DNA from: a virus | IMG/VR virus record: IMGVR_UViG_3300010361_000003 | Location: 5,470-69,469 of that record | Strand: one strand, 5' to 3' | Length of the DNA: 64,000 nucleotides | In this document: piece after piece, positions 49,471 to 53,292 of the stretch | Position numbering within the stretch: position 1 is the stretch's first letter | Layout of the letters: every line of letters starts with the position of its first letter | Translations under genes and position numbers: made by a program | The notes under the pieces: generated by a model | The model's database searches: none | Told to the model about the DNA's origin: nothing | Seen by the model: only the letters and a program-made list of their open reading frames with translations

Positions 49471-50551
49471 CCGTGAGGATGCCGGTGATGTGCCGCGCGT
49501 CGCTCGAACGGACAAACAAGAAACGACGCGCTCCCTCTACCCAAGTGACCAGCAGTCCTAGCTGAAAAGCCGGACCCGGTCGGGCACCGGGCGCACTGAG
49601 CAGTCACGTCGGCACGGATAACCGCGATTCTTAGGGACACGCGAAGCGCGCCCAGCGATTGCGGCTAAACGGCAAGGGAAGAAATACATCTTCGGCACTG
49701 TATTTCAGGCGGCGGGCGGGTTTAGAGCTGCGTCTGCAGCGATACGAGAGAGTGGTGGGGATATGTGTAAGGGGCGCGGCGATACGCGCCCCTCACCAAC
49801 CAACGAATCAATCTGCGATGATCTATCCCGGCGCGCATCACGCGCCGTGCCCCAGACCGCGCAGCTTCACCGACAGGGGCACTGACGGATCGGGCACTTC
49901 GAGCCACCGGCCCCTTTTAGATTGCATTCGACGGGGAGCACTGACGGGTGTAGGTGCTGAGTTAACTTAGGTAAGAGTCTGAATATGGCTGAGACTACTA
50001 CTTCAGAAAAACGTGCGCGCGAGGTTTCTCGGCGCGTTCTCGCGCGGGCTGGCGATGAGCCCGATCCCGCGATTTCACCGCAGCTGCATTTTCTCGATCT
50101 CTGAGAGAATTATTCCCCTGAGTGTTCACGGGACATTTCAGGAACGAGAATTTTTCACGCGTTTTTGACGAGAAAAGTGACAGTTTGCGGACCTTTTTGT
50201 GACTATGGTGGTTGTAGTGATGCCGGGTTCACGAATGAGAGGGAGAACCCGTGATGTCCATCGAACGGCAGCTTGATTTGCTGTTGCGCTCCAATCTGGT
50301 GATCATGCGCCACCTGGATGCGCTCACGCGCTCGGTTGACCTCGGAACGATGATCCGCGAGATCGAATTCTTACGCTGGGCTGATGCGCTCGCGGATTTG
50401 CGCCGCGCGACCGGCGGCAGCACGATCTCGGTGCAATTAGCCTCGGGGCTCACCCCGGCCTAGCCTCGGCGGCGCGGCTAGGGCGAGCCCGAAACCCGGG
50501 TCTCACCACCGGGTCTGCCGCGGCGAAACCCCAGGTGAGTAAGGAAGCCAA

Positions 50552-50833
50552 GTGATGAGGAAATCGATAAAAATCAGTGTTGGTGCCGCCGCGATCCTCG
50601 CGGCCGGAGGTGTGGGCATCCTGGTCGACAGCGGCTTTCGGGCCGCTCTTGACCAAGCGGTGAGCCGCGCCATTCAGGTGCGAGCGCTGCAGCAGCAAAC
50701 ACCGCCGCAAGACAAGCTCTATAACGCGCGCTTTGGCGGCGGTGGCGATATCCGCTATGGCGGCGGCGGTGACATGCGCTTTGGCGGTGGCGGTGACATG
50801 CGCTTTGGCGGCGGCGGTGACGTCAAGGAATAA
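50552..50833 (+). CDS. Gly-rich tandem-repeat peptide (candidate RiPP-like precursor)
   Basis: AAGGA RBS; hydrophobic N-terminus; C-terminal 4x R(F/Y)GGGGD(I/M/V). Confidence 0.65.
   Translation: MMRKSIKISVGAAAILAAGGVGILVDSGFRAALDQAVSRAIQVRALQQQTPPQDKLYNARFGGGGDIRYGGGGDMRFGGGGDMRFGGGGDVKE
50729..50824 (+). repeat. Four tandem 24-bp repeats encoding R(F/Y)GGGGDx
   Basis: CGCTTTGGCGGCGGTGGCGATATC / CGCTATGGCGGCGGCGGTGACATG / CGCTTTGGCGGTGGCGGTGACATG / CGCTTTGGCGGCGGCGGTGACGTC. Confidence 0.9.
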
Positions 50834-50855
50834 TAGCACCGTGGGAGGGGCCGCC

Positions 50856-51296
50856 TTGCGGCGGCCCGCTCTCTCTTGCCCAGCCGCACCTCCGCACTGG
50901 CCCGGCGTGGTGGTGTGGGGCATAGCCGCTGGCACACCCGAGCGCCCGCAGGTCATCCCGGTGCCACCCGAGCCGTTCACCACGGCGCACGCGCAAGCAG
51001 CACTGCCGGCGACACCCCGTGAGGTGTTCCGACTCGCTGCGCGGTGTGCGAAAGGATCATGTCCGCACTGGCGGCCCGAAGAGACCGGGGCCGAAGGTGA
51101 CGGCGCCTGCAGCTTGGTACAGCGGGTCATTGCTAAGCTTCCCAAAACCGCGCCGCAGAAATGCGGTATCCGCTCGGTCTGTCGCTGGTTCGCCCAGGAG
51201 GGGCTCGCCGCCTGCCGGATTTGCCCCGGCGTCGTCACCGATCTTGGCGAATTGCCGCAAGACCAGGCGAGTGAAGATCAAGTGAGGTTTTTCTGA
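50856..51296 (+). CDS. Cys-rich putative metalloprotein
   Basis: TTG start after GGAGGGG; eight Cys in SCPAA, C....C.HW, CSL, C.IR..CRWF.QEG..AC..CP. Confidence 0.65.
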   Translation: MRRPALSCPAAPPHWPGVVVWGIAAGTPERPQVIPVPPEPFTTAHAQAALPATPREVFRLAARCAKGSCPHWRPEETGAEGDGACSLVQRVIAKLPKTAPQKCGIRSVCRWFAQEGLAACRICPGVVTDLGELPQDQASEDQVRFF

Positions 51297-51297
51297 C

Positions 51298-51459
51298 ATG
51301 AACAAACAGAGCACAAGATTCGAGCGCAGCTGGCCCGAGATATTCGAGCCCCAGACTGAAGAAGAGATTGACCGCCTGCTGGCGGAATGGGCGGAGAAAA
51401 AACGTGAGCACTGGCGCGAGCAGTCAACACAAAATGCCGGACCGATCTCACACCCGTGA
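51298..51459 (+). CDS. Small acidic/helical hypothetical protein
   Basis: 53-aa ORF MNKQSTRFERSW... bridging the Cys-rich gene and the MFS gene. Confidence 0.35.
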   Translation: MNKQSTRFERSWPEIFEPQTEEEIDRLLAEWAEKKREHWREQSTQNAGPISHP

Positions 51460-52567
51460 TTACCGGCTACTGCTGGCGAGCGGTTTGGCTTGGGGTGCGA
51501 CCTCAAGCCAGGTGACGATCCTAGCGGCGGTCTTTAGGGCGCATCAGCTGCCACTGCCGCTGATCGGCTGGATCTTCACGGTGTACGCGATCGGCCTCGT
51601 CGGTGCCGCGGTGCTGAGCGGCCCGTTAATGGGCCGCTTTGGCGCCAAATCAACAATGCTCGTGGGCTTTGCAGTCTCAATTGGCAGCCTCTTGGCGATG
51701 CCGTTATCCGGCTTTGCCCCCGCACCGCTCTTGGTATTGAGCCTGAGCCGCGGTCTTGGCGGCGGGCTGATCAACCCGTCCGGGACATTGCTGGCGCAGG
51801 CGAGTGTGCTCGACAACGAGCGCGCCCACGCCATCGCGATGTATAGCCTGATGCTGCTGTTGCCGACCTTTGCCGGTCCGACCATCGGCATGTGGTCGCT
51901 GGGACATTATGGCGATGTCGGGTTTTTTGCTCTCGCCGCGGTTCCGGCGCTGCTGGCGATGCTTCTCAACCTCGCCCTGGCGCCGAGCTCGCGGGCGCCG
52001 GCCGAGGTCGCCGGCTATCTGGCGCTGTTGCGCGATCGCCGGATCTGGCTGCCGTGTCTGGCGATGATGATCAGCGGTGTCGGCTACGGCTTTGCCAGTG
52101 GCTTTGTGGTGCTGGTGGTCGGTCAAGTCGCCTGGTTCTGGATGCCGTTTGCGGTTGTGCTCTGCTTGATCCGCTGGCAAGGGTTGAAGCGCCTTGGGCA
52201 GTTGGCGCCGCAGCTGGTGATCATCAGCGGGCTGGTTGCCTACATCGCCGGATTTCTCGGGCTCTTGGGTGGGCTGGCTCTGGTGGCCGGCTTTGGTTTT
52301 GCTTATGGCTACGGGGTGGTCGGGCCAACCGCCAATGTGTGGGCCTCGGCACCTTATCCGCAGGCGGCCCGCGCCCGGCCGATCGCGCTGGTGGCGCTGA
52401 GCTACCAACTCGGCACGATGCTCACCGCCCAGCTGGTGGGTTTTGTGGTGCCGCTGGTCGGCTGGCCGGGTCTGCTGCTGACGCTCGCCGCTTTATCGCT
52501 GCCGCCTTTGCTGCTGTGCCTGCGGCGAATAGGGCCGGTAACTGAGACAAGATACCGGCCCCTTTGA
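51434..52567 (+). CDS. Major facilitator superfamily transporter
   Basis: About 12 hydrophobic segments; motif A G.LMGRFG.K, RGLG.G, ER..A.A, GP..G. Confidence 0.85.
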   Translation: MPDRSHTRDYRLLLASGLAWGATSSQVTILAAVFRAHQLPLPLIGWIFTVYAIGLVGAAVLSGPLMGRFGAKSTMLVGFAVSIGSLLAMPLSGFAPAPLLVLSLSRGLGGGLINPSGTLLAQASVLDNERAHAIAMYSLMLLLPTFAGPTIGMWSLGHYGDVGFFALAAVPALLAMLLNLALAPSSRAPAEVAGYLALLRDRRIWLPCLAMMISGVGYGFASGFVVLVVGQVAWFWMPFAVVLCLIRWQGLKRLGQLAPQLVIISGLVAYIAGFLGLLGGLALVAGFGFAYGYGVVGPTANVWASAPYPQAARARPIALVALSYQLGTMLTAQLVGFVVPLVGWPGLLLTLAALSLPPLLLCLRRIGPVTETRYRPL

Positions 52568-52569
52568 TT

Positions 52570-53118
52570 TCAGCGGAGCGGTCTGACCAGCCGCGACACC
52601 AGAGTGTGGTTGACCGCAATCGCGGGCATTATATTTTCAATTGATGATGTACCTGTATAGCAGTAGGGACCACCAAATTGATGGGAGAATTGCCATTGTG
52701 TTTGATAGTTCGAGGGATCGGCGATCCATAGGATTTTGTTCCAATCGCTCCACGCATGACTGAGGGGCAACGTTATATCGACGACGAGGTACGGCGTGCC
52801 GCTACAATTTGCCGTCAGATAGACAAATGTCGCCAAGGGGGGAATACCCAAGAATTTGTCGACATCGAGAATGACGGGCGTCGAACCCGTTGAACTCCAA
52901 GTCGTCACGCCGCCAACTTGTGCGGGCGAGCCGTTGATCGTGCGGAGCACCAAGGGCGGGCTGGCTTGAATAAGATCACCGACGCAAACCGGCGTCGGCT
53001 TTGAGGAATCAAAGATCGCGGTTTCGGGATTGCTACAATTCTGCGCCACTGCTGCCGCAGGCAGGGTCAGCGCTGCCGGCGCCAAGAGGCAACCGACTGC
53101 GGTGAGGACGTACTTCAT
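52570..53118 (-). CDS. Exported hypothetical protein
   Basis: MKYVLTAVGCLLAPAALTLPAAAVA|Q; Y...NCSG.PY motif. Confidence 0.55.
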   Translation of the reverse strand: MKYVLTAVGCLLAPAALTLPAAAVAQNCSNPETAIFDSSKPTPVCVGDLIQASPPLVLRTINGSPAQVGGVTTWSSTGSTPVILDVDKFLGIPPLATFVYLTANCSGTPYLVVDITLPLSHAWSDWNKILWIADPSNYQTQWQFSHQFGGPYCYTGTSSIENIMPAIAVNHTLVSRLVRPLR

Positions 53119-53292
53119 ACCAGGGCTCCCTTTAGGGCCAGACACCCGGCACGGTGCCAGCCCGCTCAGATCCCCCGATGTTCAAGATAGTATGAGTGGG
53201 TCGCCGAGAGTGTGACCCATCTCACAGGTCTGAGCAAAAACCCCTACGGAGCCCCAGGAGCGCGATCCTCGATCAGCCCTTCTCGGGTACCA

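What the first reader, a model, noticed from the sequence alone, without database searches (positions are those of the whole stretch)
50552..52567. Phage-borne RiPP-like island: R(F/Y)GGGGD x4 peptide, Cys-rich protein, MFS transporter
Seen: a 93-aa ORF with a hydrophobic N-terminus, a spacer and four octapeptide repeats with synonymous Gly codon variation. It is followed tightly by an eight-Cys protein, a 53-aa ORF and an MFS transporter. Known: leader + repeated core, modifying enzyme and transporter is the RiPP layout, and Gly-rich aromatic repeats recall GrrA/OscA-type precursors. No radical SAM CxxxCxxC, YcaO or protease is visible. Inference: the Cys-rich protein may be an uncharacterised metal-dependent maturase or peptide partner, producing a signalling or antagonistic peptide.
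Basis: partly seen in the sequence, partly recalled or inferred. Interest (0 to 1): 0.75.

Follow-up and report, generated by a model that had tools for sequence, protein, structure and literature searches.

The report
Phage-borne peptide, eight-cysteine partner, transporter cassette
A soil phage carries a three-gene unit (a small repeat peptide, an unstudied eight-cysteine protein and a membrane transporter) that belongs to a large undescribed peptide-plus-partner family found across many bacterial phyla, and that probably makes small exported peptides.

Summary
ORF 50552-50833 encodes 93 aa ending in four 8-residue units, R[FY]GGGGD[IMV]. An eight-Cys ORF (50856-51296) and an MFS transporter follow it. 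The record is a complete 69.5-kb phage genome with direct terminal repeats and no integrase.

The Cys protein has no Pfam, NCBIfam, PHROG or PADLOC match, and no PDB match by sequence or fold. It nevertheless defines a family of 1,236 50%-identity clusters. In 127 of 145 loci with enough upstream DNA, a small same-strand ORF of one peptide family lies next to it (control: 7 of 13,118 other ORFs).

These peptides share an N-terminal helix motif and a glycine-centred core. Different clades add double-glycine leaders with C39-ABC/HlyD exporters, Sec signal peptides, or tandemly repeated cores.

The window sits in a well-supported clade of alphaproteobacterial MAGs, soil contigs and two unrelated phages. 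Every lineage in that clade has Gly-rich 7-9-aa repeats (G-G-x-x-[IM]-R) and an adjacent MFS.

Best reading (about 0.5): a new RiPP-like precursor, partner/maturase and exporter system. The chemistry is unknown and untested. The 53-aa ORF is not conserved, and the GrrA/OscA resemblance is not supported. The scan had not noted this family before on other DNA.

The parts
50541..50547 (+). Shine-Dalgarno-like AAGGAAG ahead of the peptide start (GTG 50552 / ATG 50555)
   Evidence: Read from the sequence; inference only.
50552..50833 (+). Precursor-like peptide gene, 93 aa
   Evidence: ORF. It is a member of the upstream-peptide family by the iterated HMM. No Pfam, NCBIfam or PHROG hit.
50552..50632 (+). 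N-terminal basic + hydrophobic segment (aa 1-27), signal-peptide or membrane-anchor like. The closest relatives lack it; a cyanobacterial clade has one.
   Evidence: 4 of 118 unique peptides have such an N-terminus. No clear A-x-A cleavage site by eye.
50636..50698 (+). Family 'leader' helix motif (aa ~29-49, ..RAALDQAVSRAIQVRAL..), shared with relatives (e.g. ..KKALDAAVARALAVR.., ..AKQRAIAAREAA..)
   Evidence: Peptides printed; alignment A3.
50729..50824 (+). Four tandem 8-aa Gly-rich units (candidate repeated cores), in register F-G-G-G-G-D-[IMV]-R
   Evidence: Relatives carry 2-5 units of 7, 8 or 9 aa with G-G-x-x-[IM]-R.
50848..50867 (+). GC-rich 8-bp stem-loop just after the peptide stop, with the TTG start of the Cys gene in its loop
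   Evidence: The fold is not better than shuffles for the 71-nt stretch (z -1.25). Similar stem-loops of different sequence follow the peptide stop in L002, L078 and L080.
50856..51296 (+). Eight-Cys partner protein, 146 aa (alternative start GTG 50841). No signal peptide, so presumably cytoplasmic.
   Evidence: AlphaFold2 pLDDT 90.9, pTM 0.84. No family or fold match.
51298..51459 (+). 53-aa ORF, probably not part of the unit
   Evidence: No tblastn match in any of 150 other loci. It overlaps the likely MFS start.
51434..52567 (+). MFS transporter (the ORF is open from TTG 51368; the likely start is ATG 51434)
   Evidence: Pfam MFS_1 E 7e-20. Weak drug-efflux NCBIfam hits. Homologues at 35-44% identity lie beside the Cys gene in 16 other loci, all in the window's clade.

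Best explanation
The three genes are a phage-carried copy of an undescribed but widespread cassette. It consists of a small ribosomal peptide and a conserved cytoplasmic eight-cysteine protein, and in this clade an MFS transporter as well. The most likely working follows RiPP logic. The conserved N-terminal helix of the peptide would act as a recognition (leader) sequence, bound by the Cys protein in the cytoplasm. The Cys protein would be held together by, or act through, two four-cysteine metal sites (Zn or Fe-S). It would modify or otherwise prepare the glycine-centred core units, of which there are four tandem copies here. The short Arg-bounded units would then be released and moved across the membrane by the MFS as small signalling or antagonistic peptides. 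What is shown: the genes, the repeats, the tight and specific peptide/Cys-protein linkage across phyla, the MFS linkage within the clade, the export signals in other clades, and the phage setting. What is inferred: binding, metal sites, any chemical modification, cleavage, export, and biological role.
For: (1) Linkage. An iterated profile of the upstream peptides hits one ORF next to the Cys gene in 127 of 145 loci that have >=250 nt upstream. The same profile hits only 7 of 13,118 other ORFs of the same loci, and all 7 look like extra copies of the peptide.
(2) Asymmetric conservation, typical of enzyme and substrate. The Cys protein is 55-72% identical within the clade, while the peptides share only a helix motif and G-G-x-x-[IM]-R units.
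(3) Copy number and period of the units vary between close relatives: 3 vs 5 units in L005/L006, 3 vs 4 in L079/L078, and periods of 7, 8 and 9 aa. This fits multiple cores better than a structural solenoid. Tandem repeats occur in 11 of 118 unique peptides against 1 of 118 shuffled, and in two separate clades.
(4) Bipartite leaders. In cyanobacterial and Methylomonas loci the family helix lies N-terminal to a separate double-glycine leader. Peptidase_C39-ABC and HlyD genes follow. This implies a cytoplasmic partner for the helix other than the exporter.
(5) Several loci have more than one peptide gene per Cys gene.
(6) MFS homologues flank the Cys gene in 16 of the 17 other loci of the window's clade; the 17th contig ends just after the Cys gene. 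The clade has SH-aLRT 97.
(7) The Cys domain is a confident compact fold with 8 conserved Cys and conserved R59, R106, R110, W111, Q114, E115.
(8) Sec-signal-bearing RiPP precursors have a precedent in the bufferins (PMC11626156, passages read).
Against: No enzyme-like domain, cofactor motif or fold relative was found, so catalysis is a guess. A domain of about 135 aa is small for a maturase. No protease is present in the window's module. The hydrophobic N-terminus of the window's peptide could send it to the membrane before a cytoplasmic partner can act. Four-base start/stop overlaps in many loci and natural peptide-Cys-domain fusions fit a stoichiometric complex equally well. The Gly-rich cores of this clade differ from the hydrophobic cores elsewhere in the family. 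No RNA or proteomic evidence exists. The literature library lacks most subscription journals, and supplements were closed.
Confidence: 0.5

Rival explanations
1. The peptide is exported unmodified, as a bacteriocin-like or signalling peptide. The Cys protein is its dedicated cytoplasmic chaperone, export adaptor or immunity factor rather than an enzyme.
For: No catalytic signature was found. Most family cores are very hydrophobic and could need a keeper before export. In class II bacteriocin operons the gene after the structural gene is usually the immunity gene (recalled knowledge). Translational coupling and fusions suggest 1:1 binding.
Against: Immunity and chaperone genes are usually less conserved than this protein. 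Eight invariant cysteines and invariant Arg/Trp/Glu across phyla point to more than passive binding. One leader carrying 2-5 cores fits a 1:1 keeper poorly. The window clade's cores are Gly-rich and soluble.
Confidence: 0.2
2. The pair is an intracellular two-part metalloprotein, or a toxin-antitoxin-like or regulatory pair, that is not secreted. The small protein is a subunit or regulator of the Cys protein.
For: It is a two-gene cassette with a patchy distribution across phyla and on phages. Start/stop overlaps are frequent. Natural fusions occur in at least three lineages. The fused model folds with a confident leader helix (pLDDT about 90 for residues 21-40).
Against: Double-glycine leaders with C39-ABC/HlyD neighbours, Sec signal peptides and MFS neighbours all point to export. 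Peptides as short as 37 aa, and tandem units of variable number and period, are unlike antitoxins or fixed subunits. There is no PADLOC hit.
Confidence: 0.12
3. It is a phage peptide-communication system of the arbitrium or Rgg/SHP kind. Short units cut from the repeats are exported and re-imported (the MFS doing one of these steps). The Cys protein, acting as a zinc-finger-like receptor or regulator, senses them.
For: The unit is phage-borne and has a signal-like N-terminus and short Arg-bounded repeated units. A transporter is always adjacent in the clade. Cys-rich small proteins are often nucleic-acid binders (general knowledge).
Against: No DNA-binding or TPR domain was detected. Most family members are chromosomal and sit with bacteriocin-type exporters. 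The conserved leader helix implies contact before export, not after import. The phage has no integrase or resolvase, so there is no obvious lysis-lysogeny decision to regulate.
Confidence: 0.1
4. The peptide ORF is a chance reading frame over a DNA tandem repeat and is not translated.
For: The DNA is GC-rich, with long ORFs in several frames over the same bases. There are no expression data.
Against: A good ribosome-binding site precedes it. Differences between repeat copies are mostly synonymous. Homologous peptide ORFs with the same helix motif and a related unit motif stand at the same place in all eight lineages of the clade, even though the DNA repeats are unrelated in sequence and period. 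The family profile is highly specific.
Confidence: 0.03

Closest known systems
RiPP biosynthetic clusters with multi-core precursors and a bipartite leader (e.g. lanthipeptide or cyanobactin-type logic; class names recalled)
   Same: A short precursor gene lies directly upstream of a conserved partner. The N-terminal recognition helix is conserved and the core is hypervariable or repeated. Some loci have several precursor genes per partner. Exporters are adjacent (MFS here, Peptidase_C39-ABC/HlyD elsewhere). A stem-loop follows the precursor gene.
   Different: The partner is a ~135-aa eight-Cys domain with no similarity to any known maturase, RRE, radical SAM, YcaO, LanC, MNIO, P450 or ATP-grasp family. 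No protease is present in the window. No modification is known.
Bufferins (MNIO-modified RiPPs whose precursors carry Sec signal peptides; PMC11626156, passages read)
   Same: The precursor has an N-terminal Sec-type or hydrophobic segment yet pairs with a cytoplasmic partner. The family is large and widespread and was long annotated as hypothetical.
   Different: Bufferin precursors are Cys-bearing and are modified by a DUF692/MNIO enzyme with a DUF2063 partner. Here the peptide has no Cys, the partner holds the cysteines, and no MNIO is present.
Class II bacteriocin / double-glycine-leader peptide loci with peptidase-containing ABC exporters (cyanobacterial survey PMC3140520 and EbfG/PteB paper PMC4997328; passages read)
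   Same: Relatives in Nostocales, Moorena, Halothece and Methylomonas have double-glycine leaders and C39-ABC plus HlyD genes.
   Different: The window's peptide has no double-glycine leader context and no C39 exporter. It has an MFS instead, and the extra conserved helix plus the Cys partner are not features of class II bacteriocin loci.
GrrA/OscA-type glycine-rich repeat peptides matured by radical SAM/SPASM enzymes
   Same: Gly-rich repeats with an aromatic residue in a small ORF.
   Different: The peptide has no NCBIfam hit at E <= 0.1. None of the ten ORFs tested around the module matched radical SAM. 'GrrA' occurs in none of the 8 papers listed by that search.
Arbitrium (AimP/AimR) phage peptide signalling (recalled)
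   Same: A small phage-encoded peptide with a signal-like N-terminus and very short putative mature units.
   Different: There is no TPR receptor and no integrase. The family is mainly chromosomal and far wider than phages.

Membership tests
RiPP biosynthetic system (generic definition) | Ribosomal precursor with a recognition (leader) part and a core part | tested here: met
   A conserved helix motif followed by a variable linker and Gly-centred core(s), seen across 52 aligned peptides and by the family profile. This is sequence pattern only.
RiPP biosynthetic system (generic definition) | A dedicated enzyme that covalently modifies the core | not testable with these tools
   The Cys protein is tightly linked, but no catalytic domain is recognisable. 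This needs LC-MS after co-expression.
RiPP biosynthetic system (generic definition) | Co-located export and/or leader protease | tested here: inconclusive
   An MFS is adjacent in the window and in 16 of the 17 other clade loci. C39-ABC and HlyD occur in other clades. No protease is present in the window.
GrrA/OscA radical-SAM-modified Gly-rich repeat peptides | Match to the family's peptide model | tested here: not met
   0 NCBIfam families at E <= 0.1 for the 93-aa peptide, and 0 for it as first member of the 52-peptide scan.
GrrA/OscA radical-SAM-modified Gly-rich repeat peptides | Adjacent radical SAM/SPASM maturase | tested here: not met
   No Radical_SAM hit among the ten ORFs tested from 47.4 to 54.8 kb. 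Radical SAM/SPASM genes do occur 1-2 kb downstream in 6 other loci, next to Nif11 peptides.
RTX / beta-roll calcium-binding repeats | Nine-residue period GGxGxDxUx in tandem | tested here: not met
   The period here is 8 aa and 7 or 9 aa in homologous peptides. No Pfam hit. The consensus is recalled.
NifQ / 'nitrogen fixation protein' (the label on NCBI members) | Match to a nitrogen-fixation protein family model | tested here: not met
   NCBI and UniRef name many members 'nitrogen fixation protein', and the Atlas cluster names agree. However, no Pfam or NCBIfam nif family matches the window protein, and none is among the five families matched by any of 66 members. In Nostocales the next genes are Nif11-domain peptides, a possible source of the label (inference).
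Major facilitator superfamily | Match to PF07690 above the curated cut-off | tested here: met
   71.6 bits against a cut-off of 33.4, E 7e-20. phrog_2034 E 3e-23.
Known anti-phage defence systems (PADLOC) | Match to any PADLOC model | tested here: not met
   0 families for 6 proteins at E <= 0.01.

The most novel reading that the evidence does not exclude
The eight-cysteine protein founds a new family of small metalloproteins with a fold not seen in solved structures. This family binds a conserved leader helix and carries out a so far unknown modification at a glycine-centred motif. That would define a new RiPP class present in over a thousand sequence clusters across Cyanobacteriota, Actinomycetota, Acidobacteriota, Bacteroidota and Pseudomonadota. 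Unrelated phages, including one that appears virulent, have captured a version with tandem Gly-rich cores and an MFS pump. Infected cells would then release many copies of a 7-9-residue peptide as a signal or weapon.
Probability: 0.35. Interest if true: 0.85.

Novelty: new variant of a known kind. Interest (0 to 1): 0.72.

Why it matters
If the pair works as proposed, it adds a new maturase or partner family, probably with new peptide chemistry, to the RiPP world. Its roughly 1,200 sequence clusters are at present labelled 'hypothetical' or, misleadingly, 'nitrogen fixation protein'. The family offers cultured organisms in which to test it: Methylomonas koyamae and DH-1, Chamaesiphon, Nostoc, Trichormus, Streptomyces. 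The predicted fold is confident and has no solved relative, which makes it a good structural target. The phage copies matter separately. Two unrelated phages carry the peptide, partner and MFS unit as cargo, and the one studied here has no integrase. This raises the question of what a small exported peptide does for a phage during infection.

Tried and rejected
- **Gene neighbourhoods by exact protein look-up.** I used the search for related loci instead, as the tool message advised.
- **First regex for G-rich repeats.** It found only the window and missed the relatives' TGGASIR and EGGGEIRR units. Reading the upstream ORFs directly replaced it.
- **First greedy gene caller.** It lost the target ORF in 27 GC-rich loci. 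It was replaced by forced-target ORF lists.
- **Fold searches.** Foldseek against PDB and BFVD gave nothing at E <= 0.001. The first VIA-align wide run timed out. The repeat run reported 0 of 48,161 chains at Z >= 2. That is unusually empty, so I read it only as 'no match found'.
- **Sequence searches.** A PDB sequence profile gave a best E of 0.094. A search for longer fused forms with alignment A2 found none among 8,000 scored candidates, which is weak evidence.
- **Alignment A4.** It misaligned the free peptides onto the Cys domain and was not used. A5 replaced it.
- **Fused protein P0085.** It is a singleton on a 1.6-kb contig and may be an assembly artefact, so I rely on P0065/P0213/P0072 and the P0073 cluster. 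I could not inspect contacts in either model because no coordinates are given.
- **Hairpin at 50848-50867.** Its energy is not better than shuffles (z -1.25). I keep it only as a recurring feature.
- **Expression.** No RNA holder was listed; read laying was not used.
- **Literature.** Seven searches found no description of this family. Accession searches found 0 papers. The library lacks most subscription journals. Supplements were closed, so Table S2 of PMC3140520 (domains of unknown function in cyanobacterial bacteriocin clusters) could not be checked and may list this family.
- **Earlier findings of the scan.** Searches by sequence and by words gave nothing on this family.
- **Peptide-class labels.** My regex labels were crude. 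In the tree I use only the clade itself, and I read its peptides by eye.
Full report
**What is there**

The window is bases 5470-69469 of a 69,469-bp virus record with direct terminal repeats, rated 100% complete. PHROG hits confirm a phage: major head protein, tail proteins, virion structural proteins, an Erf-like annealing protein and the large terminase. A DnaB-N/AAA_25 replication block and a small terminase flank the finding. No tyrosine or serine recombinase is encoded anywhere in the record, so the phage is probably not temperate.

ORF 50552-50833 encodes 93 aa. It starts with a basic then hydrophobic N-terminus, continues with a helix-like stretch, and ends with four 8-residue units R[FY]GGGGD[IMV]. 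These correspond to a 24-nt tandem repeat with 3.9 copies and 87% matches. The copies differ mostly at synonymous third positions.

After 22 bases comes a 146-aa ORF with exactly eight cysteines (50856-51296). A 53-aa ORF follows, and then an MFS_1 transporter (E 7e-20). The module is richer in G+C (0.61-0.68) than its flanks (0.55-0.60).

**The cysteine protein is an unknown family**

It has no hit in any of the following:
- Pfam, NCBIfam or PHROGs at E <= 0.1, or PADLOC at E <= 0.01;
- a Pfam scan of 66 members, which gave no consistent family;
- a PDB profile search, best E 0.094.

AlphaFold2 on a 66-sequence alignment gives a confident compact model (pLDDT 90.9, pTM 0.84). Foldseek finds nothing at E <= 0.001 in PDB or BFVD. 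VIA-align reports no chain of 48,161 at Z >= 2. I read that only as 'no match found'.

A profile search of 1.84 billion representatives finds 1,236 proteins at E <= 1e-3, 977 at <= 1e-10 and 267 at <= 1e-30. Nearly all are 130-190 aa.

Eight Cys plus R59, R106, R110, W111, Q114, E115 and G116 are invariant or nearly so. NCBI and UniRef call many members 'nitrogen fixation protein'. No nif family model matches. In Nostocales the neighbouring genes are Nif11-domain peptides, which may explain the label.

I collected three sets of loci that encode relatives:
- 3 viral loci, from 138 pattern matches;
- 67 genome loci, from 115;

Reading the same-strand ORFs just upstream showed a small ORF in almost every locus. 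A profile built from 52 of these peptides (A3) and iterated on 526 candidate upstream ORFs hits one ORF in 127 of the 145 loci that have at least 250 nt upstream.

As a control, the same profile hits 7 of 13,118 other ORFs of the same loci. All 7 look like further true copies, for instance one directly downstream of the Cys gene in viral locus L003.

Among the 18 misses, several carry a peptide that my ORF rules lost. By eye these include L005, L082 and L116. Near-identical loci are included in these counts; the 129 peptides comprise 118 unique sequences. None of the peptides matches a known family consistently.

**Anatomy of the peptide family**

All peptides share an N-terminal amphipathic helix motif (roughly h..h...h..Ah..Ah..R), a variable linker, and one or more short cores around a nearly invariant glycine. 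Clades differ in their export signal:
- Nostocales, Moorena, Halothece, Methylomonas and some soil contigs have a separate double-glycine leader after the family helix.
- In Methylomonas aurea the order is peptide, Cys protein, HlyD, Peptidase_C39-ABC, all on one strand. Trichormus has HlyD and C39-ABC nearby.
- A Chamaesiphon/Synechococcales clade has Sec-type signal peptides and 3-5 tandem P-I-I-N-G-x-I-x-N-P units.
- Bacteroidota, Actinomycetota and some Alphaproteobacteria have a longer small-protein form, often overlapping the Cys gene by 4 bases.

Tandem repeats occur in 11 of 118 unique peptides, against 1 of 118 shuffled ones.

**The window's own clade**

A quick maximum-likelihood tree of 131 distinct Cys domains places the window in an 11-row clade with SH-aLRT 97. 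The careful search had not finished, and many forks are unresolved. With near-identical loci counted in, the clade holds L002, L005, L006 and L072-L085: 17 loci besides the window, forming eight lineages with it. Its only named members are two uncultured alphaproteobacterial MAGs and two viral contigs.

Every lineage has a short peptide with the family helix followed by Gly-rich tandem units:
- TGGASIR x5 (L002);
- TGSGAIR x2 (L072-77);
- IGGASIR-like x3 or x4 (L079, L078);
- MRFGAGSG x2 (L080/81, closest to the window's MRFGGGGD);
- VEGGGEIRR x3 or x5 (L005, L006);
- three TGGxxIR-like units (L082);
- two degenerate units (L083-85).

The shared register is G-G-x-x-[IM]-R. The period varies (7, 8 or 9 aa), and the copy number varies between near-identical loci.

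MFS homologues (35-44% identity) flank the Cys gene in 16 of these 17 loci. The 17th contig ends just after the Cys gene. The 53-aa ORF has no counterpart anywhere.

The window and L002 share only the Cys and MFS genes; their flanks are unrelated. The module is therefore mobile cargo in two different phages. GC-rich stem-loops follow the peptide stop in the window, L002, L078 and L080. The window's hairpin is not better than shuffles.

**Fusions**

In at least three lineages the peptide part is fused to the N-terminus of the Cys domain:
- P0065/P0213 and P0072;
- the four-member P0073 cluster, which includes a Longimicrobiaceae MAG;
- P0112.

P0085 is a singleton and is not relied on. AlphaFold2 of P0065 gives pLDDT 82.7, with the leader helix at about 90. 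I could not inspect contacts.

**Reading**

Five observations together fit RiPP logic best:
- the linkage is tight and specific;
- the partner is much more strongly conserved than the peptide;
- the leaders are bipartite;
- cores and precursor genes come in multiple copies;
- export machinery is adjacent.

Under this logic a cytoplasmic partner recognises the leader helix and acts on glycine-centred cores before export. Signal-peptide-bearing RiPP precursors have a precedent in the bufferins (PMC11626156, passages read). Phage-borne biosynthetic clusters have been surveyed; I saw only the search listing and the start of the abstract of bioRxiv 10.1101/2020.10.01.322628 and of PMC11118758.

Nothing here shows catalysis, metal binding, cleavage or export. 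Coupling and fusions fit a stoichiometric complex equally well. I therefore give the RiPP-like reading 0.5. The rivals are a chaperone or immunity partner of an unmodified peptide (0.2), an intracellular pair (0.12), a peptide-receptor signalling pair (0.1) and an untranslated ORF (0.03).

**Comparison and novelty**

The layout works like a RiPP cluster, but none of the known maturase families is present. The GrrA/OscA, RTX, NifQ and PADLOC membership tests fail. Seven literature searches found no description, within the limits of an open-access library with supplements closed. The scan's earlier notes hold nothing on this family. A note on the same phage that proposes a SciP-like alphaproteobacterial regulator agrees with my host inference; I did not test it. 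I class the finding as a new variant of a known kind, resting on a protein family that is itself new.

Noticed in passing
whole virus record (G000): The complete 69.5-kb phage genome has no tyrosine integrase (PF00589) or serine recombinase (PF00239), so the peptide/MFS module is probably expressed during lytic infection rather than from a prophage.
   Followed up: partly
window 52570-53145 (-): A 191-aa ORF with a clear signal peptide converges on the MFS gene, ending 2 bases from its stop. It has no hit in Pfam, NCBIfam, PHROGs or PADLOC.
   Followed up: partly
window 50300-52400: The module is 5-10 points richer in G+C (0.61-0.68) than the flanking phage DNA (0.55-0.60), which fits acquisition from a GC-rich host.
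   Followed up: no
L017, L020-L023 (Nostocales) and viral locus L004: Directly after the Cys gene come one or two Nif11-domain precursor peptides with double-glycine leaders, then a radical SAM/SPASM enzyme. This looks like a second RiPP pathway in the same cluster, and it may be the origin of the 'nitrogen fixation protein' label.
   Followed up: partly
L007, L015, L020, L027 (Cyanobacteriota): A PpiC-type peptidyl-prolyl isomerase gene recurs within 1-3 kb of the cassette, beside HlyD and C39-ABC. This is notable because the cores there are Pro-flanked (P-P-I-I-x-G-x-I..P).
   Followed up: no
L053 374-841 (Variovorax sp.): The upstream family peptide contains two uninterrupted glycine runs of about 24 and 38 residues flanking a hydrophobic G-motif.
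   Followed up: no
L002 5761-6000 and proteins P0004-P0013, P0021: Many close relatives of the Cys protein (209-234 aa) carry an extra ~85-aa N-terminal domain with no Pfam hit. The window's copy lacks it.
   Followed up: partly
P0065, P0072, P0073, P0112: Natural fusions place the leader-helix peptide at the N-terminus of the Cys domain in at least three lineages. These are useful constructs for structural work.
   Followed up: partly
window 50464-50500: An inverted repeat (CCTAGCC..GGCTAGG) follows the stop of the 70-aa ORF upstream of the peptide gene. It may be a terminator that makes the module its own transcription unit.
   Followed up: no
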